DNA of 64,000 nucleotides, taken from NCBI GenBank assembly GCA_005223145.1, contig NJBL01000002.1:3541-67540 (forward strand), written 5' to 3'. Below the pieces are notes generated by a model. It made no database searches, was not told where the DNA came from, and was given only the letters and a program-made list of their open reading frames with translations. Below, in pieces: positions 10,244-36,125 of the stretch. The number at the start of each line of letters is the position of its first letter. Position 1 is the stretch's first letter. The translations under genes and the position numbers were made by a program. Origin of the DNA: a bacterium (candidate division B38) B3_B38 (GTDB lineage Bacteria > Acidobacteriota > B3-B38 > Guanabaribacteriales > B3-B38).

Positions 10244-12343
10244 TCAGAATTTCACCAGACCTATTTTCTGCAGGTCTTCGGCAAAGTGAAGGACGAACTC
10301 TATATCTGTCTCGTCGAATTCGCAGGATACAATATGTCTGATATCCAGGAGGGTACGCTTACCGTCCATCAGGTTTACGATTTCGTAAGTCTTGGAACCG
10401 TAGGCACCTCCAGCTTTCTGCCTGTTTTCCGCATACCACTTATTACTTTCTTCATCGAGCTTCTCCCTCAGGTAGTTCCAGGGCAGAGGACCCTGGAAAA
10501 GCCTCTGGGGCTTAAGGGAAGAGGCTTTTTTATATAAATCGGTAGGGCGGAATTCCTCTTTCTTTAAATTGTATTGACGGGTCAAGAGGTCGTATATTAG
10601 CTTTATTTTTTCCTTTTCGCTGGCGACCTGACGGTATATATCTTTAGCCAGCTCATCAATAATCTTTCTGCTTGCTTGTTTATCACAGAGTTCCGTTACC
10701 TCCCTTAAGTTTGTCGACTCGATACCAGCCTGAACATGAGGATAGTTGATTATGTTGAAGTAAAGCTCAGCTAAATGCTTGCTCTTTTCGGAGTCATAGA
10801 CGTATTGCTGAAGTAATCGAATGGATTTTTGGGTTCTCTCTACAATTCTCAGTATTGCCTGACTGTAAAGCTCACCAGCGATTTTTACCGCATCCTCATC
10901 ATCGGCGTTGGCTAAAAGGAGGGCGGCTGCCAGAGAGAGACTGATTATCCTCTTCATCTCCGTGGGGTCGCACTTATCGGGAGTATCCAGGCTGCTATGA
11001 TGAAAGACATCGCCGTGACCCAGCATGGGCGTGGGGATGGAAAAAGCGGAGTCGTTAAACATGATGTGGTCTGAGCCTCCACTATAGGGATTGATGCGGA
11101 AATTGAAGCGGTATCTGCTTCCCCGCGGAGAATAGAATACGCCTCCATCCAGCCAACCCAGCAGGTTAATAAGAACATCATTGATATAGCCAGGAACCGA
11201 ATAGGGAGAGCAAGTCAGGTTGAAGTTCGCCTGGCAGAGGGCATAATCCTCGCCAATCATATCCAGGTTCAACCCGGCAATGCCCTTATCCTTGAGGTCT
11301 TGATGCTCAGTAAGATAGGCTGCTGCTCCGTGTATTTCGGGAAGCCAGAGAAAACGAAGGGTTCTCCTGGGAGGCGGAATCTCTCCCCTGCTGACCAGAG
11401 CCAGGATGTTTCTCACCATCTCCACCATACCGGCTGAACCCGAGGCGTTGTCGTTGGCTCCGGGCTTATAATGGTCGAGGTGCCCCATGATGATAATCTC
11501 CTGGGAAGGATGTTCACTTCCGGTTATCTTAGCTTCGAGCACTGCCATCTCGCCGTCGAAAAGCTCAGCGTCCACCCTGGCCCGCATGGTTACCTTTTCC
11601 CCTGCTTTAAAGAGAGAAACAAGTTCCTTCTCCTGCCTTCTGGATAAGGCGAAGCCAAAGCCAGTCTTTTCTCTTTCCTCTCCAGTGGGTGAGAGGCGGC
11701 TGACCTCTATTAAATCGGGGTACGGAAGACGGTTCTCTCTATCCGAAGGTCCGACAATAACGCCACAAGCTCCTCTCTTTAAAACAGCTTGACGATGGAC
11801 CTGCGAGCCTCCGCCGCCGGTGGCGAAAACAAGCTTACCTTTGACATCTATATTTTTATAATTGGCGTCTGATTTCCCTCCGCCCACATAGATAACCTCA
11901 CTTTCCACCTCGCCACCCCGAGAGTAAGGCATCAGGCTCACCGCCTGGTCGGAATAGCGGGCGAGAAGCTTTTTGTAAGGTTCCACCAGCCATAATTCAG
12001 CCTCTTTCACTCGCCAGCCGACGAGGGAGTTCCAGAGGAAATATTTTTTGAAGCCGTCGGCTGTATATCTTTTAATAATGACCTCTTCAAGCCCCATTTT
12101 TTTCAACTCATTGGCCAGGTATTCAACGCAGCGATTGTAATCAGAGCCCTCTCCTCCGCCCCTTATACGGTGAAAGCGCGATATTTTGGAAACCATATCC
12201 CAGGCTCGCTCCCCTGAAACCTCGTTTTGAATAGCTTCTAACAGCTCCTTATCAAGGAGATAGGGGTTGTCCTGAGGATAGACAAACAGAGAACTGGAAA
12301 GAAAGAAGATGATGGTGAATAATAAAAGAATCCTTTTTACCAT
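10244..12343 (-). CDS. secreted M28-family zinc aminopeptidase with large C-terminal extension
   Basis: Signal peptide MVKRILLLFTIIFFLSSSLFV after RBS GGGAGG. M28 metal-ligand motifs MGHLDHY and GANDNASGSAG. Confidence 0.65.
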   Translation of the reverse strand: MVKRILLLFTIIFFLSSSLFVYPQDNPYLLDKELLEAIQNEVSGERAWDMVSKISRFHRIRGGGEGSDYNRCVEYLANELKKMGLEEVIIKRYTADGFKKYFLWNSLVGWRVKEAELWLVEPYKKLLARYSDQAVSLMPYSRGGEVESEVIYVGGGKSDANYKNIDVKGKLVFATGGGGSQVHRQAVLKRGACGVIVGPSDRENRLPYPDLIEVSRLSPTGEEREKTGFGFALSRRQEKELVSLFKAGEKVTMRARVDAELFDGEMAVLEAKITGSEHPSQEIIIMGHLDHYKPGANDNASGSAGMVEMVRNILALVSRGEIPPPRRTLRFLWLPEIHGAAAYLTEHQDLKDKGIAGLNLDMIGEDYALCQANFNLTCSPYSVPGYINDVLINLLGWLDGGVFYSPRGSRYRFNFRINPYSGGSDHIMFNDSAFSIPTPMLGHGDVFHHSSLDTPDKCDPTEMKRIISLSLAAALLLANADDEDAVKIAGELYSQAILRIVERTQKSIRLLQQYVYDSEKSKHLAELYFNIINYPHVQAGIESTNLREVTELCDKQASRKIIDELAKDIYRQVASEKEKIKLIYDLLTRQYNLKKEEFRPTDLYKKASSLKPQRLFQGPLPWNYLREKLDEESNKWYAENRQKAGGAYGSKTYEIVNLMDGKRTLLDIRHIVSCEFDETDIEFVLHFAEDLQKIGLVKF

Positions 12344-12463
12344 TTTTAAACCTCCCTGCAATAAAGGTTTCAATCTATGGGGATAAATACTTTGTAATTC
12401 ACCACTCCTTCAGTTTGAGGACTTAAACGGCAAGTCTGCTGTCACATCTACCTTTTAAGATAT

Positions 12464-13744
12464 TTACCTGCTTAACTTTTTCTCAAATTTATTTGAAACC
12501 TCAATACCTGACAAATCTGTAAGCACTTTTAAAAACTGTTCTGTCGATTTCACCTTATTTATTATCAGTCGTTTTAATAACTGCAGAAAATTATCATTAC
12601 CAATTTCTGCTTCCAGTTCGTGAAGTAAAATACAACCTTTATCATACAAGACAGTAGAGGCATTTTCATCCATTCTGTCTATTCCCTTAATCGCAGGCAT
12701 ATTTTTAGATTTTTGGCGCTTAGCTTGTATCAAATCTTTAAATGTTTCGTTTCCGAATTTCTCTCTGACAGCCATTAATGCAGAATACTCAGCAAATGAT
12801 TCATTAAGCCAATCTTCCCAGGTATTAGTAGGAGCATTAAGCCACCAAATATGAGCAAATTCGTGAGCAATGTACCTGAAATAACCGATTTTGTTTTGGT
12901 AATAATCTTCATCTTCAAAATGATTAAAAACAACAAAACCCCTTCTGGCATAACCTCCGCCTATATTTCTTGGAGCAATAACAATCGAAGCCTTATATGC
13001 TTTGATATCACTAAACCATTCACCATAGTTGTCTAATATCCACAGACCTTGTTCCATCATATCAACTGCGGTAGAATCACTCGTAGCAGTGTAACTTATA
13101 TCCATACTCAAACCATTTCTTTGGTTCTTTTTCGTATGAATTTCTTTAGCTGCCATTATGATAATATCATTTGTAGGATTTTCCTGTGAAACCTGCCAAT
13201 AATCGTCCAATTTTTTTGTCTTGCCCATACCAATAATTTGATATTCTGGGTCGATTTTTACATCCACGATATATGTGAAGTTTTCAATTGCAGGCTGATA
13301 AGGAAACCAGGGAGTATACATACCCAGCTCTATCCATTCTTTCGTTATACGATTTATCTCCCATTGCGTTACAACTCCTATTTTCCCGACATATTGCAAA
13401 TTGATTTGTAGCGCTTCGCCTTTTTGTAGTGGTTTGCTCAAGTGAATCGTAAGCGTACCTGCTTCTGGTGTAAAAGGGAAAGCACAGGGATCTTCTGTAT
13501 TAAATGTGTATTCAACAAGATTTTTACATGTTAGAGTTTCAATGGAAAGATTTCTATGAAGATAAAATGTTAAAATGTCAACCCGTTCTTTTTTGGCATA
13601 GTAGGTTAAATCAACATTAGCATTGAGCAGCTGCCTATTTACATCGAGTTTGAGATCAATTTTATAAAAACTGGTGCCAGTTTTCTCTGTAACAAAACAA
13701 CTGGTCAATATAATTAACAGCAGTAAGCAGAATGTCCATCTCAT
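12464..13744 (-). CDS. gluzincin metallopeptidase, M1 aminopeptidase-like (short form), lipoprotein or secreted
   Basis: HEFAHIWW...WLNESFAEY gives HExxH-(18)-E spacing typical of M1. N-terminus MRWTFCLLLLIILTSC has a signal sequence with lipobox-like LTSC. Start moved to the internal Met at 13744. Confidence 0.55.
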   Translation of the reverse strand: MRWTFCLLLLIILTSCFVTEKTGTSFYKIDLKLDVNRQLLNANVDLTYYAKKERVDILTFYLHRNLSIETLTCKNLVEYTFNTEDPCAFPFTPEAGTLTIHLSKPLQKGEALQINLQYVGKIGVVTQWEINRITKEWIELGMYTPWFPYQPAIENFTYIVDVKIDPEYQIIGMGKTKKLDDYWQVSQENPTNDIIIMAAKEIHTKKNQRNGLSMDISYTATSDSTAVDMMEQGLWILDNYGEWFSDIKAYKASIVIAPRNIGGGYARRGFVVFNHFEDEDYYQNKIGYFRYIAHEFAHIWWLNAPTNTWEDWLNESFAEYSALMAVREKFGNETFKDLIQAKRQKSKNMPAIKGIDRMDENASTVLYDKGCILLHELEAEIGNDNFLQLLKRLIINKVKSTEQFLKVLTDLSGIEVSNKFEKKLSR

Positions 13745-14103
13745 TGGAATCTCACCCGTTATATTTTTAAATTTCGGATGATGTTCCTGGGCTTTGCGAA
13801 GCTGACGCAGGCAGTGTGGGCGTAGGGAGTGAGCCGCTAAGCCAGGATTATCTGTCATTTGCCACAAAGTTACGACTCCTTACCTCGTAGCGCACTTACA
13901 AGTCCAGCCAATACAGCGCCAAAGAGGGCTACTTTAAACGCAGTGCACCAAGATATTGACCCTGCTATCAAGATTTGCTTAACAGCTCTCTTATATGGCT
14001 TTAAGATTTATGACCTAATTATCTGCTTCTAAAGCTATTTTCGATTCCCACGGTATCGCCACTCGGGCTTTTTCAATCCGTTGCGGGAATTTTCGCTGGC
14101 TGG

Positions 14104-29240: not shown

Positions 29241-30176
29241 TCACCTCTCATAACCGACAAGCAACCGATTAGTGACATTCCTGATAGCCTTAGCGACGCC
29301 GGAATCGGGGTACTTTAGAAGGAGGGGCTTCCTTAATCTGGTCGATTCCTCCACTTGCAAGTCGTAATCAATGTAGCCCAAATACTGGAGAGCAACCCCC
29401 ATGGCACCCTCGCAGACCTTCTCGATGGAATAGCCAAGTGTTCTGTGGTCAGGGGTGGTAGTCCAGTTCAAAATGAGCTTGACTCCAAAGCGGGCGAGTT
29501 CCTCTTCGATTTTCTTCCTAACCCCTTCATTCAACATCCCTCCCGCTTCACTAATTATCTTAGCCACCCTTTTTACTCCCCATTCCCCTTCCTGGTCAAA
29601 GGATGCCTCCCATCTCTTTCTTGTACTGAGATCCGGGATTAGAGTGGTTAACCTTCGCCAGAGGGCGGTCTTGATAAATTGGAAGAAGTTTTCAATGGAG
29701 GCTGGCTCTGGTCGGGCAATTACCACCTTATGATGGGCTATGAGAAAAAAATCGAGGACATTAAAGGAGACACCGGTCCCCAAGTCTAAGATGATGAAGT
29801 CTGCTGAAAGCCTTTTGATCGCCTTGAGGAGCGCCATTTTCTTCTTATAAACTATATTGGCTACCCCCAATGGGGCTTTACCTCCGGGGATGAGGGAAAG
29901 ATGGGGTACACCGGTCTGAATTGCAGCCGGGGCTAAATTGGACACCTTGCCAGAGATGAAATCGGAGAGAGTGAGCCCTTTGAGGGGGAGGTCCAGATAG
30001 GTATGAAGATTGGCATTACCGAGGTCTGCGTCAACCAATATCACCTTCTTGGAAAGCCCGGCAATGTGGATTCCTATATTAGTAGCCAGAAAGCTCTTCC
30101 CCACACCGCCCTTCCCGCTGCCCAGAGCTATAATTATTCCGCCAGCCTGACTGCAGTCCAATATATCTCGGAGCAT
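29241..30176 (-). CDS. MinD/FlhG(FleN)/ParA-family P-loop ATPase
   Basis: Deviant Walker A GSGKGGVGKS. VILVDADLGNANL and the DLGTG Walker B region are present; fold length typical of MinD/FlhG. Confidence 0.7.
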   Translation of the reverse strand: MLRDILDCSQAGGIIIALGSGKGGVGKSFLATNIGIHIAGLSKKVILVDADLGNANLHTYLDLPLKGLTLSDFISGKVSNLAPAAIQTGVPHLSLIPGGKAPLGVANIVYKKKMALLKAIKRLSADFIILDLGTGVSFNVLDFFLIAHHKVVIARPEPASIENFFQFIKTALWRRLTTLIPDLSTRKRWEASFDQEGEWGVKRVAKIISEAGGMLNEGVRKKIEEELARFGVKLILNWTTTPDHRTLGYSIEKVCEGAMGVALQYLGYIDYDLQVEESTRLRKPLLLKYPDSGVAKAIRNVTNRLLVGYER

Positions 30177-30210
30177 ATCTCTCCAATCTTAACCCAGGGC
30201 AATCCTTGAG

Positions 30211-31062
30211 CTAAGGAATCTCTTTGGAAGAGGTTTTTAGCACCTCGTTCATGCTCCCTGTGCGGTATCCTTGCAGGTCTAATGTTATATATTTGTATCC
30301 CAGACTTTTAAGCTTCTTTACAACTTTTTCGACCACAAGAGACGCGAGGAAACGGGGAATCTCTGAGGAGAGCACCTCAATGCGCGCCACATCCCCATGG
30401 TGACGAACCCGAACCTGCTGGAAACCGAGTTTCCTCAAAAAATCCTCCCCCTGATTTACAGCCTTCAACTTCTCCCCAGTGATGGTGGCATGATAAGGAA
30501 ATCGGCTTGCCAGGCAGGCTGACGAGGGGAAGTTCCAAGTCGGCAGACCGGCCTTTCGGGAGAGATAACGAACCTCATCCTTGATAATTCCGACATCTAT
30601 CAAAGGGCTTAAAACCTTAAGCTCCTGCGCAGCCTTCAATCCGGGGCGGAAATCCGAAGTATCATCCAGATTGCTCCCATCAACAACCACATTATAACCC
30701 TTCTCTGCTGCAATTTCTTTCAATCGGGTGAAGAGCTCAATTTTGCAATAATAGCAGCGGGAAGGGGGATTAGAGCGGAATTGAGGAGACGCCAGCTCAT
30801 TGGTAGCGATAACTGTATGAGCTATCCCGTAACGGTGGGTGAAATCTTTCGCTCTTTTCAAATGGTGCTGAGGATAAAGGGAACTCTGGGCGGTCACTGC
30901 CAGAACCTTATCCTTCAGGACTAACTGGGCTATATAGAGCAAATAGCTGCTATCCGCTCCCCCGCTGAAAGCCACCACCACAGAACCGTAGCCCCGCAAA
31001 AGCCCTTTGAGCCTCTTCTCCTTTTCCTCCGGGGAAAGCCCTTCTTTATATTTATTTCCCAT
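30211..31062 (-). CDS. larE: PP-loop ATP pyrophosphatase, LarE-like (sulfur transferase family)
   Basis: PP-loop VVAFSGGADSS, conserved CYYCK, and C-terminal region typical of the LarE / TIGR00268 family. Confidence 0.6.
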   Translation of the reverse strand: MGNKYKEGLSPEEKEKRLKGLLRGYGSVVVAFSGGADSSYLLYIAQLVLKDKVLAVTAQSSLYPQHHLKRAKDFTHRYGIAHTVIATNELASPQFRSNPPSRCYYCKIELFTRLKEIAAEKGYNVVVDGSNLDDTSDFRPGLKAAQELKVLSPLIDVGIIKDEVRYLSRKAGLPTWNFPSSACLASRFPYHATITGEKLKAVNQGEDFLRKLGFQQVRVRHHGDVARIEVLSSEIPRFLASLVVEKVVKKLKSLGYKYITLDLQGYRTGSMNEVLKTSSKEIP

Positions 31063-31230
31063 ATTCTGAGAGTTGTAATTAAAACCTTTTTAACTATGCT
31101 AACAAAGGCGTTAGGATTAAGTCAAGGCATTTTCCCCTAAGCTGATAATAAAAAGCACTCTGTTTTAGTTCTTGATTAGTTTGACAAATGACACTGTTTA
31201 AGCTATCTTTTTACAAAAGGCAGAAGAAAG

Positions 31231-32349
31231 GTGGATGAGGTGATTGACCTGAAAAATTGGAGGAGAGGCTTAACAATTTTTCTGTTTACCATCTTTTACT
31301 TGTTTCTCTCACCCTTATTCAGGGAAAACTATGCCTGGCAGGAGGAGAGAGGAGCAAAATTCCGCAAGCTGTGGGAGTTCCAGGTTGGAGAAGCCACCAA
31401 TTTTACGTCTTCCATAGCCATTCTCACCCAACCTATTTGTGATGCGGAGAAGGTCTATTTCGCCTCCGAAAACGGAACCTTCTATGCCTTGAATATTGTC
31501 AGTGGAGAAAGGGTCTGGGAATTCACCGCCGGCAGTCCAGTTCGACAGAGTGCTACCTTGGGGGACCACAGCCTTTTTGTGGCCACCTCGGGCATGGAAG
31601 CACTATCTCTGGACCTCATTACTGGAAATCTGCGCTGGAGAAGGAGGATGGACGGCGAAATCTTCACTCCCTTAATCTTCAATAAAGGTGCTTTGTATTT
31701 CGGCTTTTCCCGATATATCGCTTGCTTGAGAGCCTCTGATGGGGAAGAGATATGGAGATTTGAGACTGGGGATGAAGTCCATGCTCCCCCAATTATTGAA
31801 GGTGAATTCCTTTATGCGGGTTCGGACGACGGCTTCCTCTACGCTCTCACCCCACGAGAGGGTAGGCTTCGGTGGAAATTCTCCACCTCCGGGAAAATCG
31901 TAGCTGCTCCCCTGCTGTTTGAAGGAACGCTCTTTGTGGGAAGCTACGACAACTACATCTACGCTCTACACCCCGACTCAGGAAAGCAGAAATGGAAGAA
32001 AATCACTGGCGGGGATGTGAATTGCCGCCCGATAGGATGGGAAAAGTGGGTATTTGTTTCCTCCTTAGACAATTTTCTATATTGCTTGCAGGTGAAAAAC
32101 GGCTATCTCTCCTATAGGTTCAGACTTCCTTACCGCCTTTACCACTCGCCGGTAATTTCCGGAGACCTCCTGTTTATGGCTCCCTTATCTGATACACTGG
32201 TCGTTATAGACCCCATAAATGGGGAGAAGGTGGGTGGTTTTACTGCTCCTTCCTTGATAACCTCCCCTCCTGGCCTGTCCCCAAATGGAGATATCATCTT
32301 CATCGGTACTAATAAGGGGCTCCTCATCGCCCTCAAATTGATAAGTTAG
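31231..32349 (+). CDS. PQQ-like beta-propeller repeat protein (BamB-like)
   Basis: N-terminal membrane anchor. Repeated roughly 40-aa units of the form G.lYa....G.l.A......W. Confidence 0.55.
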   Translation: MDEVIDLKNWRRGLTIFLFTIFYLFLSPLFRENYAWQEERGAKFRKLWEFQVGEATNFTSSIAILTQPICDAEKVYFASENGTFYALNIVSGERVWEFTAGSPVRQSATLGDHSLFVATSGMEALSLDLITGNLRWRRRMDGEIFTPLIFNKGALYFGFSRYIACLRASDGEEIWRFETGDEVHAPPIIEGEFLYAGSDDGFLYALTPREGRLRWKFSTSGKIVAAPLLFEGTLFVGSYDNYIYALHPDSGKQKWKKITGGDVNCRPIGWEKWVFVSSLDNFLYCLQVKNGYLSYRFRLPYRLYHSPVISGDLLFMAPLSDTLVVIDPINGEKVGGFTAPSLITSPPGLSPNGDIIFIGTNKGLLIALKLIS

Positions 32350-32524
32350 TTAGCGACTTGGTAAATATCCAATTGAGATTGGCTATAAATTTATGAAAAA
32401 AGATTTAAAATAGATGTGGAAATGCAGAGATGTAATCCGAGAATGGTTAAAACAACATTATTTAGAAACCTTCAGTATCTTAAAAACATTCTTTGTATTT
32501 AGATTTATACTTTTACTCATTGTT

Positions 32525-33619
32525 TCACAGAAGAAAGCCATATACAATGTGTTCTAAATCATTGTAATTATTTGAGATGATTTTAAACTTTTCTAAATTT
32601 AATTCCATAGCCATTGATTTCAGCCTTTTTACATCAGACTCTCGAGGGTTTAGCTTTACCTCATATGCCTCTTTTTTATCCAGAATAATGTCAATTTCTA
32701 CCCCATTTTTTCTTTGATAATAATTGAACTCTCCCTTAGGCCTAAGATTCTGAAAAATACTGTTTTCGAAAAGGCTTCCCATATCCAAGTTAGCAAAATG
32801 ATTGGCTATACCGGTATCACATAGGTAAACCTTAGGCATCTTTCTAATCTCAGAATTTCTTCCTTTACTAAATGGTCTTATTGTTTTTATGAAGTATATA
32901 CCCTCCAAGAAAGAAATATATTCGCTCAATGTTGGACGAGAAATACCCAATTCTCTTGAGATATTTTGAATATCTAATTTAGAACCAAGCCGTTGCATCA
33001 AAAGTAACATTAAATCTCGAATAGCTTCGTTTCTTCGAAAATCCCCTAACTGTAGAATTTCCAGTTGAAAAAAGGAATTGAAGATTTCTTCTAATGCTTT
33101 TTTCTTCTCTTGAGCATTAGATTTTAAAACTACTCCTGGAAATCCGCCAAATTTAATATATTCATCATATAAAAGAGAAATTTCGTCAAAGATCGGTTGG
33201 GTGATATGGCGCGCATTCTCTGGTATTCTTAAAGAGCTTCCTTTGAATAAGAGACATTCACTAAAACATAAAGGAAAAAGCTCAAAAATATATTTCCTTC
33301 CAGAAAGCGATTCTGTGAAAAGGTTTTTTAAGTAGAAACTGGCTGAACCGGTCAAGAAGAATTTTACTTGATAATGGTCAATAAAATATTTAACGACTGA
33401 AGGTAGATTTTTTACAAACTGTATCTCGTCCAAAAATATGAACGGCTTACTCGTAAAATCAATTCCTAAACTCTCAAACGAGAACTTGATTCGCTCATAA
33501 TTACGCTCTTCAAAATATTTTCTATTTAATGGATTTTCTAAATCTAAAAAAACTTTATTTTTCGAGGCAATTTGACTATCAATAAATTTGAGAAGCGTCG
33601 TTTTACCAGTCCTCCTCAT
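32525..33619 (-). CDS. AAA+ ATPase of the COG1373/DUF4143 family; N-terminus lacks an ATG (possible pseudogene or ATA start)
   Basis: The track ORF begins inside the Walker A (GMRRTGKTTLL). The frame stays open 27 codons further upstream (…IVKPRLIFNTIKAYLDSPEAIIVTG), with ATA at the position where family members have Met. The gene lies in a low-GC segment. Confidence 0.55.
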   Translation of the reverse strand: MRRTGKTTLLKFIDSQIASKNKVFLDLENPLNRKYFEERNYERIKFSFESLGIDFTSKPFIFLDEIQFVKNLPSVVKYFIDHYQVKFFLTGSASFYLKNLFTESLSGRKYIFELFPLCFSECLLFKGSSLRIPENARHITQPIFDEISLLYDEYIKFGGFPGVVLKSNAQEKKKALEEIFNSFFQLEILQLGDFRRNEAIRDLMLLLMQRLGSKLDIQNISRELGISRPTLSEYISFLEGIYFIKTIRPFSKGRNSEIRKMPKVYLCDTGIANHFANLDMGSLFENSIFQNLRPKGEFNYYQRKNGVEIDIILDKKEAYEVKLNPRESDVKRLKSMAMELNLEKFKIISNNYNDLEHIVYGFLL

Positions 33620-33695
33620 TCCAGTAACGATGATTGCCTCGGGAGAATCAAGGTATGCTTTGATTGTGTTAAATATTAGCCTTGGTTTGACTATA

Positions 33696-33765
33696 CATTA
33701 CTATTTGTCAAGTATATTTCACATATAGTAATACTATTTGCAAAATATATTTTACATATAGTATA
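33696..33765. repeat. two imperfect tandem ~33-bp direct repeats (…ACTATTTG-N5-TATATTT(T)ACATATAGTA…) upstream of the AAA+ ATPase gene
   Basis: cattactatttgtcaagtatatttcacatatagta and atactatttgcaaaatatattttacatatagta lie side by side in an AT-rich intergenic region. Confidence 0.4.
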
Positions 33766-33893
33766 AACGAACTTAAAAATGCAAAATAAACCTCCATGCC
33801 AATTGAAATAAGTCTTGGATAAAGGATAAAAATAGCCCTGAAAGAAAGATAATACCATCCAATAAGACTTAAAAGAAGTTAAATAGAAAGGGC

Positions 33894-34817
33894 TTAAATC
33901 AAACCCTTTTCCTTAAGGTAGGCTTCGGCTGCGATGGCAGCTGTTGTGCCGTCGCTCATAGCATTGGTGATTTGCTTAGCTAACTGGAATCGGATATCCC
34001 CGGCAGCAAAGACCCCCTCTGCCGAGGTCAACATCTTAAAGTCGGTCTTAATGTAGCCTCTCTCGTCCAGCTCCAGATTTTTATTCAGGAGCTTACTGTT
34101 GGGTACAAATCCTATATAAATAAACACCCCGCTGACCTCAAGAGGGCTATTTTTGCCTGTCTTCACATTCCTCAGCAAAAGTCTCTCCACCGTCTCCTTC
34201 CCCTCTATCCTTTTTATTATGGTATCCCAGATGACCTCTACTTTAGCATTCTCAAGAAGTTCCTCTTGAAGCTCCTTTTTAGCTCGCAAGCTATGCCGTC
34301 GGTGAATAAGATAAACCTTCTGGGCAAACTTAGTTAAATATACAGCCTCCTGTACCGCAGCATCCCCCCCGCCGACTACTGCGATGGTCTGCTCGGCGAA
34401 AAAGGGTCCATCACACAGAGCGCAATAAGAAATTCCCTTCCCCAGAAACTCTTTCTCTCCCGGAACATTAAGCCACCTTGGCTCACCCCCCGCAGCCAGA
34501 ATTACCGCCCCTGCGTGGTAGGTACCTTTTGCCGTTTTTACCACCTTCGCATTCCTTTCGCTGTGAATCTCCTTCACTTCTTCCAGCTTTATATTCGCCC
34601 CGAACCTTCGCGCATGCTGTTCCATTCGCTGGGCTAATTCAAGCCCGGAGATACTATCAAATCCCGGACAGTTCTCAATCCTCTCGGTATTTAAAATCTG
34701 CCCTCCGGGCATCTTCTTTTCCAGCACCAGAGTATTGAGCTTTGCCCGGGCACAATACAGCGCAGCTGTGAGACCTGCTGGCCCCCCTCCCACAATTATG
34801 ATATCGTATCTCTCCAT
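33894..34817 (-). CDS. trxB: thioredoxin-disulfide reductase
   Basis: FAD motif [10 protein letters not shown], redox-active CALCDG, NADPH site. Confidence 0.85.
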
Positions 34818-34849
34818 CTTCTTCTTTCAAGGAGACTAACAAAGCCCCT

Positions 34850-35056
34850 TTAGCTACCCGACTTCTCCTTGACGAGAATCTCGTAACCCTCTATCTGGAC
34901 CTCCTCAACTTTACAATTCTCACGAGACTCCCGTTGCAGAAGATTGGTCTCCTTGGTACACTTCAGGAAAGCTTCTGCGGGGTTTCTGGCCACCACCAAA
35001 CCCCAGCAGGGGATCTCCCCCAAATGGCAGACTACATAAAGCCTTAAGTCCGACAT
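34850..35056 (-). CDS. small hypothetical protein (68 aa)
   Basis: Fits between trxB and dcd on the same strand. No motif; may be non-coding. Confidence 0.25.
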   Translation of the reverse strand: MSDLRLYVVCHLGEIPCWGLVVARNPAEAFLKCTKETNLLQRESRENCKVEEVQIEGYEILVKEKSGS

Positions 35057-35113
35057 CTTTTCTCCCTCTGCCTTTCCCGGAATTGTTTTAATAATCTGAT
35101 AAATAGTTAGATT

Positions 35114-35680
35114 TTATTCCGATTCTTTTACTCTCGATAAAATTATACCCTCTTGAGCTTGATATCTCCCTCCTTTATCTCGGTAGGAGAACTCACACTC
35201 TTCATCCGCTTCAAAAAATATCACCTGAGCTATTCCCTCGTTGGCATACAGCTTCGCTGGAGAGTGAGAATGATTGCATATCTCCATGGTGATGAAACCC
35301 TCCCATTCGGGCTCCAGAGGGGTGATGTTCAAGAGGATGCCGCAGCGGGCATAGGTGGACTTGCCCACACAGAGGGTGAACACATTCCGAGGTACCTTGA
35401 AATATTCAACCGACCTTCCCAGGACAAAGGAGTGAGGCGGGATAATACACACCGCCCCTTCGAAGTCTCTGAAAAAACCGGGCCCCATTTTTTTGGGGTC
35501 GACCACCTGTCCCTCTTGGGGGGAGAAAAGCTTGAACTTATCTGCCAGTCGGATGTCGTATCCATAGGAGGAAAGGCCATAAGATATGACAGCTTGGCTC
35601 ACCTGGGAGGGAGCGAAAGGCTTGATCATTCCATGTTCCAGAGCCATTTTCTTAATCCAGCGGTCCGACTTTATCCCCAT
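35114..35680 (-). CDS. dcd: dCTP deaminase
   Basis: KSDRWIKK...GMIKPF...[14 protein letters not shown] matches Dcd/dUTPase-fold deaminases. Start taken at MGIKSD, giving 188 aa. Confidence 0.7.
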
Positions 35681-35702
35681 GCTCTTCCTTTCTGGCAAAA
35701 GG

Positions 35703-36125
35703 TCAGGAGGGCACTTCCCGGCCATCTCTCAGTGCAATGCGCCACACCTCGTCTATGGTGTCCACAAATTGGAATTCAAGCTCTTTTTTTATGGCTTCGG
35801 GTATTTCCTCCAGGTCTTTTTCGTTCCTGGAGGGGAGGATGATGGTTCTAATACCCGCCCGTTTAGCCGCCAGCACCTTCTCTTTGATCCCCCCTACCGG
35901 CAGAACCTTCCCCCTGAGGGTTATTTCCCCGCTCATAGCAACATCGGGTCGCACCGGCTTATCCATTAACAGAGAGATGAGAGAGGTGGCAATGGTCACC
36001 CCAGCGGAGGGACCATCTTTGGGTATGGAGCCCGCAGGGATGTGGATGTGGAGGTCGTATTTATCAAAGAAGTCCTCAAACTTCTTGTGGAACTCCCAAA
36101 AATCTTCTTCAAATTTACCTTTCAT
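35703..36125 (-). pseudogene. lon: 3' fragment of Lon protease gene (C-terminal half of S16 proteolytic domain only)
   Basis: [28 protein letters not shown]...[49 protein letters not shown] aligns closely with Lon residues about 665-784, including the catalytic Ser and Lys. There is an in-frame stop 4 codons upstream of the Met, and no AAA+ or N-terminal domains precede it. No Shine-Dalgarno sequence. Confidence 0.55.

What the first reader, a model, noticed from the sequence alone, without database searches (positions are those of the whole stretch)
32350..33893. Low-GC island with a COG1373-type AAA+ ATPase whose start codon reads ATA, flanked upstream by tandem 33-bp repeats
The ATPase gene and its flanks (about 32.35-33.9 kb) are visibly AT-rich relative to the roughly 50% GC surroundings. 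The ORF-track protein starts inside the Walker A (MRRTGKTTLL). The frame continues 27 codons upstream with family-typical sequence (IVKPRLIFNTIKAYLDSPEAIIVTG). The position where homologs have ATG (M-I/V-K-R…) reads ATA, with a stop immediately before it. This suggests either a start-codon point mutation (recent pseudogenisation) or non-canonical ATA initiation. The upstream region holds two imperfect tandem 33-bp repeats. This ATPase family is frequently found in mobile or accessory contexts.
Basis: seen in the sequence. Interest (0 to 1): 0.5.

Follow-up and report, generated by a model that had tools for sequence, protein, structure and literature searches.

The report
Silenced, horizontally acquired ATPase-nuclease gene
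A foreign, AT-rich candidate phage-defence gene sits between two housekeeping genes of this uncultured bacterium and has recently been switched off by losing both its start codon and part of its promoter. This is an ordinary case of gene decay, although the public annotation still lists the protein as intact.

Summary
Window 32350-33893 is the most AT-rich 1.5 kb of the window (GC 0.31 against 0.48). It carries a 389-codon AAA_14 + DUF4143 ATPase gene, which matches PADLOC candidate defence family PDC-S01. ATA stands where 42 of 43 distinct relatives have ATG. Two 33-bp tandem repeats lie upstream.

More distant relatives of this organism have the same gene order without the ATPase, so the DNA was inserted. 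Proteins 72-87% identical occur in about ten phyla.

The repeats are a duplicated promoter. Across relatives, a 29-bp two-fold symmetric element (TTGACAAATAGT-N3-ACTATTTGTAAAAT) holds the -35 and -10 boxes. The ATG follows 6-8 nt later with no Shine-Dalgarno sequence, so I predict a leaderless mRNA and, probably, self-repression.

In this lineage, seen in three independent assemblies, ATGATC became ATAGTC and a 20-bp deletion removed the proximal -10 box. Residues invariant in 90 homologs are also mutated (F147C, T266I, F336I).

Recent inactivation is the best reading (about 0.75). ATA initiation is unlikely. The excess of amino-acid changes is shared with ATG-bearing relatives, so it does not decide the question.

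The parts
32350..33893 (.). Low-GC stretch between the PQQ-propeller gene (stop at 32349, + strand) and trxB (stop at 33894, - strand)
   Evidence: GC 0.31 against 0.483 +/- 0.031 for other windows of this size; it is the lowest in the window.
32380..33798 (.). Inserted foreign DNA (about 1.42 kb); borders approximate
   Evidence: This DNA is absent from syntenic relatives L062, L064 and L065, where the PQQ stop and the trxB stop are 51-110 bp apart. With 32380-33809 removed, the window aligns colinearly with those intergenic regions.
33799..33893 (.). Native AT-rich intergenic DNA next to trxB
   Evidence: Homologous to the empty-site intergenic regions of L064 and L062.
32525..33694 (-). AAA_14 - winged helix - DUF4143 (PD-(D/E)xK) ATPase reading frame. 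It has 389 codons counted from ATA, stop TGA at 32525-32527, and no internal stop or frameshift.
   Evidence: NCBI protein TKJ35853.1 (CEE39_00550) is this frame with the ATA written as M.
33689..33694 (-). ATAGTC where orthologs have ATGATC: lost start codon plus I2V
33698..33700 (-). In-frame TAA two codons upstream of the ATA; it excludes any upstream start
33617..33619 (-). First in-frame ATG (Met26), inside the Walker A loop G25-MRRT-G30-K31-T32. A product starting here would lack strand beta1 and G25.
   Evidence: (strand E21-25).
33699..33763 (-). Two tandem 33-bp units: a duplicated promoter/operator module
   Evidence: TRF result. Each unit is palindromic. The units are homologous to the conserved promoter of relatives.
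33749..33762 (-). Upstream half-site ACTATATGTAAAAT
33716..33744 (-). Distal copy of the 29-bp symmetric promoter, TTTGCAAATAGT-ATT-ACTATATGTGAAAT, matching the consensus at 22 of 26 positions. Its -35-like box is TTTGCA (33739-33744). Its -10-like box is TGAAAT (33716-33721), with G where the critical A should be.
   Evidence: The consensus scan reports no promoter on this strand.
33700..33711 (-). Proximal TTGACAAATAGT arm (perfect -35 box TTGACA at 33706-33711), now left without its -10 partner
33699..33706 (-). AAATAGTA, the junction of the 20-bp deletion. Relatives have AAATAGTATTTCAATGTGAT followed by a second AAATAGTA.
33596..33622 (-). Walker A (GMRRTGKTT)
   Evidence: these columns are invariant in alignment A2.
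33425..33442 (-). Walker B (FIFLDE)
32900..32971 (-). Helix-turn-helix / winged-helix segment
   Evidence: Weak Pfam HTH_5 match (E 1e-3) and weak CasR/Csa3 HTH matches. The model shows helices 242-265.
32654..32773 (-). PD-(D/E)xK motif residues: E310 (LFENS), D335 (EIDII) and E345-x-K347 (YEVK). All are present, but the invariant F336 next to D335 is replaced by I.
32369..32379 (+). CCAATTGAGAT, an 11-bp direct repeat of 33799-33809 (CCAATTGAAAT) lying at the two insert borders
   Evidence: Repeats of this length are what shuffled flanks give.

Best explanation
The low-GC stretch holds a single-gene cassette acquired by horizontal transfer. It encodes an AAA+ ATPase fused to a winged-helix segment and a PD-(D/E)xK nuclease domain (Pfam AAA_14 + DUF4143, COG1373, PADLOC candidate defence family PDC-S01).

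The cassette entered the intergenic region between the PQQ-propeller gene and trxB in an ancestor of this candidate-division-B38 sub-clade.

In the wider subfamily the gene carries its own expression signals. A 29-bp two-fold symmetric element, TTGACAAATAGT-N3-ACTATTTGTAAAAT, has arms that contain a near-consensus -35 and -10 box. Many members have a further half-site upstream. The ATG follows 6-8 nt after the -10 box and there is no Shine-Dalgarno sequence.

I infer that transcription starts at or next to the A of the ATG (a leaderless mRNA). I also infer that the symmetric element is an operator, most likely bound by the protein's own winged helix to keep a potentially toxic nuclease at a low level.

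The window's two 33-bp repeats are a tandem duplication of this module. In the lineage of this genome the module and the start were destroyed. A 20-bp deletion between two AAATAGTA repeats removed the proximal -10 half. ATGATC became ATAGTC.

The frame is still open, so the inactivation is recent, but replacements at invariant residues have begun to accumulate.

Shown: the insertion, the lesions, their presence in three assemblies, and the conserved promoter layout. Inferred: the leaderless start, autoregulation, loss of expression, and the defence role.
For: Identity of the gene:
- Pfam, PADLOC.
- Invariant Walker A, Walker B and D...ExK columns.
- Foldseek hits to AAA+/STAND proteins such as Apaf-1, Avs5, ORC, RFC and TnsC.

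Foreign origin:
- GC 0.31, z = -5.6, GC3 0.30.
- Empty sites in L062, L064 and L065.
- Proteins 72-87% identical in Aminicenantia, Clostridia, Spirochaetota, Scalindua, Omnitrophota, Nitrospiraceae and Syntrophus MAGs.
- Only the promoter and the ORF are conserved between contexts.

Promoter layout:
- 41 of 43 distinct upstream regions match the 29-bp consensus at 17 or more of 26 positions.
- Spacer positions carry 1-2 bits each, and on average 9 of 12 arm positions are complementary.
- 28 of 43 reach at least 9 of 12 matches to the sigma-70 consensus. In 24 of these the -10 box ends 6-11 nt before the ATG, and in 17 it ends 6-8 nt before.
- An SD-like tetramer occurs in 1 of 43.
- The independent scanner finds TTGACA-17-TAAAAT ending 6 nt before the ATG in L005, and nothing on the gene strand in the window.

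Lesions:
- ATGATC to ATAGTC plus the 20-bp deletion, shared by three different haplotypes.
- All outgroups have ATG.

Decay:
- The ATA lineage has 13 non-synonymous and 3 synonymous changes. Flanking genes have 46:106 (Fisher p = 1e-4).
- The window violates 4 positions that are at least 98% conserved in 90 homologs (M1, F147, T266, F336). Those homologs average 0.3 violations, with a maximum of 3.

Literature: leaderless mRNAs strongly require AUG, and AUA drastically lowered reporter output (PMC8459731).
Against: - The reading frame has no stop or frameshift over 389 codons.
- The excess of non-synonymous changes is not specific to the ATA lineage. L002 shows 5:3 and L060 against L061 shows 13:5, all with ATG. 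The comparison 13:3 against 18:8 gives p = 0.49. The ratio therefore indicates clade-wide relaxation or diversifying selection, not proof of death after the ATA change.
- The ATG-bearing close relatives also have sub-consensus promoters, so expression may already have been weak before the lesion.
- A degenerate distal promoter copy remains at 33716-33744 and could give a leadered transcript.
- No transcription start, protein binding or expression data exist.
- Covariation between the two arms of the symmetric element is weak: 8.98 against 8.75 complementary positions, with 49 of 2000 shuffles reaching the observed value.
- The defence role is only a prediction. The one PDC-S01 gene tested in E. 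coli B was not among the candidates that protected against T4, T5 or T7 (bioRxiv 10.1101/2024.09.26.614923).
Confidence: 0.75

Rival explanations
1. The gene is still functional and starts at ATA (read as fMet), as the NCBI annotation assumes. It would be expressed at a low level from the remaining distal promoter copy.
For: - The frame is open over 389 codons.
- The catalytic Walker and D...ExK residues are retained.
- The ATA allele has persisted long enough to split into three haplotypes.
- Within those haplotypes the changes are 5 non-synonymous to 3 synonymous, which is not clearly neutral.
- ATA is a permitted initiator in translation table 11, and NCBI annotated it that way.
Against: - It is the only ATA among 43 distinct alleles.
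- No Shine-Dalgarno sequence precedes it.
- The family layout is leaderless, where AUA is very inefficient (PMC8459731).
- The proximal -10 box is deleted, and the distal -10-like box has G at the critical second position.
- Invariant F147, T266 and F336 are replaced.
Confidence: 0.13
2. A shortened protein made from the internal ATG (Met26) is the functional product.
For: Gene callers pick this ATG, giving the 364-aa products P0005 and P0241. The HTH and nuclease domains would be complete.
Against: - Met26 lies inside the Walker A loop, so the product lacks G25 and strand beta1.
- No ribosome-binding site precedes it.
- None of the 95 full-length homologs of 389 aa is shortened in this way.
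Confidence: 0.05
3. The ATA and the deletion are sequencing or assembly errors of this metagenome-assembled genome.
For: The source is a MAG, and read-level data were not available here.
Against: The same ATAGTC and the same 20-bp deletion occur in two other assemblies from different sequencing runs. Those assemblies differ elsewhere in the gene and in the flanks.
Confidence: 0.01
4. The copy was already non-functional, or dispensable, in the whole B38 sub-clade before the ATA lesion. The ATA change and the deletion are only late steps of a longer decay.
For: - The N:S ratio is also elevated in ATG-bearing alleles. L060 against L061 gives 13:5, against 16:27 for the adjacent PQQ gene (p = 0.02). 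The L002 branch gives 5:3 and includes G116A at a position where 94 of 95 homologs have G.
- The proximal promoters of L002 and L060 are sub-consensus, and the better copy in L061 lies 41 nt upstream of the ATG without a Shine-Dalgarno sequence.
Against: - L060 and L061 have no violation of the 108 highly conserved positions.
- W against L060 gives dN/dS 0.16, similar to the flanking genes, so purifying selection acted over most of the clade's history.
Confidence: 0.25

Closest known systems
PADLOC PDC-S01 candidate defence genes (Pfam AAA_14 + DUF4143; COG1373)
   Same: Same domain architecture and strong HMM matches. It is a single-gene unit with a patchy, cross-phylum distribution. The literature describes the family as an ATPase fused to a PD-(D/E)xK domain, as the fourth most common predicted defence system in prokaryotes, and as having crossed domains repeatedly (PMC12988326).
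   Different: This copy lacks a start codon and a -10 box. It does not sit in a defence island: its neighbours are trxB, dcd, lon and a PQQ-propeller gene. No antiviral activity has been shown for the family. The palindromic leaderless promoter described here is not mentioned in the papers I could read.
Controller (C) protein genes of restriction-modification systems (my own knowledge, not checked here)
   Same: Mobile defence modules whose regulator gene is preceded by palindromic operators (C-boxes) overlapping the promoter. Some, such as pvuIIC, are transcribed as leaderless mRNAs, and this layout works after transfer into a new host.
   Different: C proteins are small HTH regulators that control separate nuclease and methylase genes. 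Here the presumed DNA-binding domain, the ATPase and the nuclease are one polypeptide. No binding has been shown.
STAND/AAA+ nuclease defence proteins such as Avs
   Same: A P-loop ATPase core followed by helical and winged-helix domains and joined to a nuclease effector. Foldseek places the model nearest to Apaf-1, Avs5, Avs4, ORC and RFC.
   Different: TM-scores are only about 0.3 and the model has mean pLDDT 70. The protein has 389 aa and no repeat-type sensor domain. There is no sequence-level match to any solved structure.
Start-codon-loss pseudogenes in bacterial accessory genes
   Same: A derived loss of ATG, an accompanying regulatory deletion, and replacements at conserved residues, with the rest of the frame still open.
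   Different: The excess of amino-acid changes is shared with relatives that keep the ATG, so the timing of the loss of function is uncertain.

Membership tests
AAA_14 + DUF4143 ATPases (COG1373) / PADLOC PDC-S01 | AAA_14 domain above the Pfam gathering score | tested here: met
   101.2 bits against a cut-off of 27, residues 19-148.
AAA_14 + DUF4143 ATPases (COG1373) / PADLOC PDC-S01 | DUF4143 (PD-(D/E)xK clan) domain C-terminal to the ATPase | tested here: met
   98.7 bits against a cut-off of 28.1, residues 212-348. E310, D335 and E345-x-K347 are present.
AAA_14 + DUF4143 ATPases (COG1373) / PADLOC PDC-S01 | Match to the PDC-S01 profile HMMs | tested here: met
   PDLC04789 at 3.5e-62 over residues 5-376, and six further PDC-S01 models.
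AAA_14 + DUF4143 ATPases (COG1373) / PADLOC PDC-S01 | Complete, translatable gene | tested here: not met
   ATA in place of ATG, no other in-frame start after the TAA, and the proximal -10 box deleted.
AAA_14 + DUF4143 ATPases (COG1373) / PADLOC PDC-S01 | Protection against phage or plasmid | not testable with these tools
   The literature reports that validation is pending (PMC12988326). One PDC-S01 tested in E. coli B was not among the protective candidates.
Horizontally acquired genomic islet | Composition deviating from the host | tested here: met
   GC 0.31 against 0.483, z = -5.6; GC3 0.30 against 0.54-0.58.
Horizontally acquired genomic islet | Empty site in related genomes with the same flanking genes | tested here: met
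   L062, L064 and L065.
Horizontally acquired genomic islet | Close homologs in unrelated lineages | tested here: met
   72-87% protein identity in about ten phyla.
Horizontally acquired genomic islet | Integrase, tRNA target or other mobility gene | tested here: not met
   There is no tRNA gene in the window, and the insert holds only the ATPase gene. In other contexts the cassette lies next to tRNA-Val (L007, L026) or close to tRNA-Gly and tRNA-Cys (L005).
Transposon-like insertion element | Target-site duplication | tested here: inconclusive
   An 11-bp repeat (10 of 11 identical) lies exactly at the borders and is single-copy in the empty site. However, 10-11 bp repeats with at most one mismatch are what shuffled flanks give, and 29 of 31 other loci show nothing above that level.
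Transposon-like insertion element | Terminal inverted repeats and a transposase | tested here: not met
   No terminal inverted repeats are visible at 32380 and 33798. There is no transposase domain.
Leaderless mRNA genes | Start codon about 6-8 nt after the -10 box and no Shine-Dalgarno sequence | tested here: met
   This holds for the homologs. It no longer applies to the window copy.
Leaderless mRNA genes | Mapped transcription start at the A of the AUG | not testable with these tools
   No transcript data were available.
Pseudogene | Disabling lesion relative to orthologs | tested here: met
   Loss of the start codon and deletion of the -10 box.
Pseudogene | Neutral substitution pattern specific to the disabled lineage | tested here: inconclusive
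   The lineage shows 13N:3S, but ATG-bearing relatives show 18N:8S (p = 0.49). Violations of conserved positions are higher in the ATA lineage: 3-4, against 0-1 in the ATG-bearing relatives.

The most novel reading that the evidence does not exclude
This PDC-S01 subfamily may be a self-contained unit that moves itself. It consists of a 29-bp symmetric promoter/operator, a leaderless ATG and one ATPase-winged-helix-nuclease protein. On this reading, the protein both represses its own promoter and, through its PD-(D/E)xK nuclease, promotes insertion of the cassette at new sites. That would make it a single-gene mobile element of a kind not yet described.

The data do not exclude this:
- Conservation ends sharply at the promoter and at the stop codon.
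- The cassette occurs in many unrelated contexts.
- An 11-bp repeat lies at the insert borders here.
- Long flanking direct repeats occur in L028 and L021.

The data also give little support: there are no terminal inverted repeats, and flanking repeats are at chance level in 29 of 31 other loci.
Probability: 0.04. Interest if true: 0.8.

Novelty: new member of a known kind. Interest (0 to 1): 0.3.

Why it matters
1. Annotation. The public record (TKJ35853.1) lists a 389-aa protein that starts at ATA. Tools that census defence systems would count it as present, yet the copy is most likely silent.

2. Family biology. PDC-S01 is reported as one of the commonest predicted defence families, but it is uncharacterised. 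This subfamily carries a near-consensus promoter built into a 29-bp symmetric element, followed by an ATG with no leader, and the layout is conserved across about ten phyla. That gives a concrete, testable idea of how the gene is expressed in any new host and how it is kept in check.

3. A small natural history. The locus shows insertion, duplication of the promoter module, and then knock-out by a slippage deletion plus a dinucleotide change.

None of this is surprising in kind.

Tried and rejected
- Rfam scan of 32200-34000 at E up to 1: no match.
- Terminator scan: none found. The repeat region folds as an AT-rich hairpin (-18.9 kcal/mol, z = -2.6) but has no U-tract, so it is not a canonical terminator.
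- Sequence search of the PDB: no match.
- Structure prediction: mean pLDDT 70 and pTM 0.49 from a shallow alignment. Foldseek supports only a general AAA+/STAND fold at TM about 0.3, so I drew no finer conclusion.
- Viral contigs: no relative found.
- Plasmids: 525 records hold family members, but all are below 60% identity and the best is 43%. No direct vector was identified.
- dN/dS as a pseudogene test: it is elevated, but equally so in ATG-bearing relatives, so it does not discriminate.
- Target-site duplication: the 11-bp border repeat is within chance expectation.
- Covariation between the two arms of the palindrome: marginal.
- Flank conservation between contexts: none beyond the promoter and the ORF.
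- The 55-aa ORF at 33691-33858 (- strand) and the 47-aa ORF at 32414-32557 (+ strand): no Pfam match for the former. The 20-bp indel shifts its frame in relatives. I treat both as spurious.
- Literature search for AAA_14, PF13173 and PF13635: only noise.
Full report
**What is there**

Window 32350-33893 lies between a PQQ-type beta-propeller gene (31231-32349, + strand) and trxB (33894-34817, - strand). Its GC content is 0.31. Other 1544-bp windows of the 64 kb average 0.483 (sd 0.031, minimum 0.353), so it is the most AT-rich stretch of the window (z = -5.6).

On the minus strand it holds one long frame, 33694 to 32525. Pfam finds AAA_14 (101 bits) followed by DUF4143 (98.7 bits), with a weak helix-turn-helix match between them. 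PADLOC assigns it to candidate defence family PDC-S01 at 3.5e-62. NCBIfam has no specific model for it.

The frame reads TAA TGT ATA GTC AAA CCA AGG ..., that is * C I V K P R L I F N T I K A Y L D S P E A I I V T G M R R T G K T T L L. The first canonical start is Met26, inside the Walker A loop. The window comes from the MAG "bacterium (candidate division B38) B3_B38". NCBI annotates the gene as a 389-aa protein, MVKPRL..., with the ATA written as Met.

**The ATA is real and derived**

Syntenic loci from other samples share the gene order lon, dcd, a 68-aa ORF, trxB, ATPase, PQQ gene, a PP-loop ATPase gene, a MinD-like gene and a DnaJ-domain gene.
- L002, L003, L004, L022 and L052 (97% nucleotide identity to the window), and the more distant L060 and L061, read TAA TGT ATG ATC/ATT AAA CCA.
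- The window, L001 (SRR30888626) and L066 (SRR14803097) read TAA TGT ATA GTC AAA CCA.

These three also lack 20 bp (AAATAGTATTTCAATGTGAT) that the others carry between TTGAC and AAATAGTAATGT. The deleted piece is bounded by two copies of AAATAGTA, which points to a slippage deletion.

The three ATA sequences differ from each other at 4-8 positions of the gene. They are therefore separate haplotypes, not one assembly error. Among 43 distinct upstream-plus-start sequences of relatives (42-100% protein identity), 42 start with ATG.

**The DNA was inserted**

More distant orthologs of the PQQ protein (75-81% identity) lie in loci L062, L064 and L065. These have the same flanking genes but no ATPase: the PQQ stop and the trxB stop are 110, 107 and 51 bp apart.

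If window 32380-33809 is removed, the rest aligns colinearly with these intergenic regions. About 1.42 kb is therefore an insert, and 33799-33893 is native AT-rich intergenic DNA.

An 11-bp direct repeat sits at the two borders (CCAATTGAGAT at 32369-32379 and CCAATTGAAAT at 33799-33809) and is single-copy in L064. However, repeats of 10-11 bp with one mismatch are what shuffled flanks give, and 29 of 31 other loci show nothing better. I do not claim a target-site duplication. The window contains no tRNA gene.

**Spread of the subfamily**

Proteins of exactly 389 aa and 70-96% identity are numerous. GTDB species representatives with 72-87% identity include Aminicenantia, Clostridia, Spirochaetota, Candidatus Scalindua, Omnitrophota, Nitrospiraceae and Syntrophus. 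Members with 56-68% identity occur in Desulfobacteraceae, Cloacimonadota and Patescibacteria.

The gene stays AT-rich (GC 0.28-0.41 in most) whatever the host GC. Between contexts, similarity begins about 60 bp upstream of the ATG and ends at the stop codon. Over long distances the gene is under strong purifying selection, with dN/dS of 0.04-0.16.

**What the 33-bp repeats are**

Upstream regions of relatives share one layout: TTGACAAATAGT, three variable bases, then ACTATTTGTAAAAT, then 6-8 nt, then ATG.
- The two arms are reverse complements of each other, with 9 of 12 positions complementary on average.
- The left arm contains TTGACA and the right arm contains TAAAAT, spaced by 17 nt.
- Many loci have a further ACTWTTTGTAAAAT half-site upstream.
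- 41 of 43 sequences match the 29-bp consensus at 17 or more of 26 positions.
- The spacer positions, which ordinary promoters do not conserve, carry 1-2 bits each.
- 28 of 43 sequences reach at least 9 of 12 matches to the sigma-70 consensus. In 24 of these the -10 box ends 6-11 nt before the ATG, and in 17 it ends 6-8 nt before. Only 1 of 43 has a Shine-Dalgarno-like tetramer.
- The independent scanner reports TTGACA-17-TAAAAT (11 of 12) ending 6 nt before the ATG of L005.

From this I infer a leaderless or nearly leaderless mRNA, and an operator that overlaps the core promoter. The element is the same in hosts from many phyla, and the cassette encodes only one protein, which has a helix-turn-helix segment. 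Binding by that protein (autorepression) is therefore the simplest reading. It is not shown, and covariation between the arms is marginal.

More distant homologs carry different palindromes directly upstream:
- GGATAATTTGTAC-N7-GTACAAATTATCC in L020.
- ACTTTTTGCA...TGCATATAGT on a Runella plasmid.

In the B38 clade the 33-bp module varies in copy number. L060 has the standard one and a half palindromes. L061 and L002 have an extra unit. The window, L001 and L066 have that extra unit but lost the last half-site, and with it the proximal -10 region, to the 20-bp deletion. The window's two 33-bp repeats (33699-33763) are this duplicated module. The motif is unique in the window, and no Rfam family or terminator matches.

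**State of the window copy**

- The proximal TTGACA (33706-33711) now lies 10 nt from the former start codon.
- The distal copy (33716-33744) has TTTGCA as its -35 box and TGAAAT as its -10 box, with G at the critical second position.
- The scanner finds no promoter on the gene strand.
- The start codon is ATA. No ribosome-binding site lies upstream, and no in-frame start can exist after the TAA.
- Leaderless mRNAs depend strongly on AUG. In Caulobacter reporters every near-cognate codon tested, including AUA, drastically lowered output (PMC8459731).
- A product starting at Met26 would lack G25 of the P-loop and strand beta1.

**Substitution pattern**

I polarised the changes using L060 and L061 as outgroups.
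- The ATA lineage has 13 non-synonymous and 3 synonymous changes. The stem branch alone has 8:0.
- Flanking genes over the same comparison have 46:106 (p = 1e-4).
- The window carries F147C and F336I, at positions where 95 of 95 homologs have F. It carries T266I (94 of 95 have T). It also carries K244N and K375N, at positions that are K or R in all 95.
- Against 108 positions that are at least 98% conserved in 90 homologs outside the clade, the window has 4 violations and L001 and L066 have 3 each. L002 has 1, and L060 and L061 have 0. The reference proteins average 0.3, with a maximum of 3.

There is an important caveat. ATG-bearing alleles of the clade also show an excess of amino-acid changes at short range. 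The L002 branch has 5:3. L060 against L061 has 13:5, against 16:27 for the neighbouring PQQ gene (p = 0.02). The ATA lineage does not differ significantly from them (p = 0.49).

Their promoters are also below consensus. The copy may therefore have been weakly expressed and under relaxed or diversifying selection since it entered this clade. The ATA change and the deletion would then be the final knock-out.

**Comparison with what is known**

PDC-S01 is described as a single-gene candidate found by a "guilt-by-embedding" approach. It is an ATPase fused to a PD-(D/E)xK domain, is reported as the fourth most common predicted defence system in prokaryotes, and has been transferred repeatedly between domains. 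Validation is pending (PMC12988326).

One PDC-S01 gene cloned in E. coli B was not among the candidates that protected against T4, T5 or T7 (bioRxiv 10.1101/2024.09.26.614923). DUF4143/COG1373 is listed as a PD-(D/E)xK family of unknown function (PMC3424549).

No solved structure matches by sequence. A medium-confidence model is closest to AAA+/STAND proteins. The broader family occurs on 525 plasmid records at 43% identity or less, and I found no close relative on viral contigs.

**Verdict**

The locus is a member of a known candidate defence family that was inserted by horizontal transfer and recently silenced.

The one feature that I did not find described in the papers I could read is the conserved symmetric promoter with a leaderless start. 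It is of modest interest and easy to test.

Noticed in passing
window 32525-33694 (-): The public annotation (NCBI TKJ35853.1, locus tag CEE39_00550) gives a 389-aa protein starting MVKPRL. That means the ATA is translated as Met. Other gene callers start the same allele at Met26 and give 364 aa (P0005, P0241).
   Followed up: yes
L060:2385-2500; L061:270-386; L002:2180-2297: The 33-bp promoter module varies in copy number among close relatives. L060 has one unit plus a half-site. L061 and L002 have two units plus a half-site. The window has two units without the last half-site. This points to repeated slippage or unequal recombination at this spot.
   Followed up: yes
window 33689-33694 (-): The GA to AG change destroys a GATC site (ATGATC to ATAGTC) and creates a TATAGT hexamer. 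That hexamer lies only 10 nt from the orphaned TTGACA, too close for a sigma-70 promoter.
   Followed up: partly
L028: about 260 nt upstream of the ATG and 130 nt downstream of the stop: A perfect 37-bp direct repeat (TACATGAAGGCTCGGTCATAAACCGGGCCTTTTTTTT, a terminator-like hairpin with a T-run) flanks the cassette in this metagenome contig. Shuffled flanks give at most 12 bp. L021 has a 20-bp flanking repeat with one mismatch.
   Followed up: no
L007:5218-5292, L026:2718-2792, L005:3438-3668: In other hosts the cassette lies 48 bp from a tRNA-Val gene (L007, L026). In L005 it lies about 330-560 bp from tRNA-Gly and tRNA-Cys genes.
   Followed up: partly
L016 and L058; L014: Other copies look damaged. 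L016 has a stop at codon 127 of the aligned frame. L014 departs from the family C-terminus after about residue 362.
   Followed up: no
L020:3930-3990; L067:2440-2495: Distant homologs (43% identity) carry different palindromes directly upstream of the start. L020 has GGATAATTTGTAC-N7-GTACAAATTATCC. A Runella rosea plasmid has ACTTTTTGCA...TGCATATAGT together with a Bacteroidota-style TAtaTTTG motif.
   Followed up: partly
window 29241-35725 compared with L060 and L002: Synonymous divergence of the ATPase gene is about half that of its neighbours. Against L060 it is 0.24 compared with 0.33-0.53. Against L002 it is 0.013 compared with 0.03-0.64. The flanking genes also differ widely among themselves, which suggests recombination between strains.
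   Followed up: no
window 12250-13870 (-): This is the second most AT-rich stretch of the window (GC about 0.35). It covers a 467-aa ORF with a weak peptidase M1 domain, set among other peptidase genes (M28, M20, S9).
   Followed up: partly
window 33691-33858 (-) and 32414-32557 (+): Short ORFs of 55 and 47 aa run through the AT-rich non-coding parts of the insert. The first has no family match, and the 20-bp indel breaks it in relatives. Both are probably not genes.
   Followed up: partly
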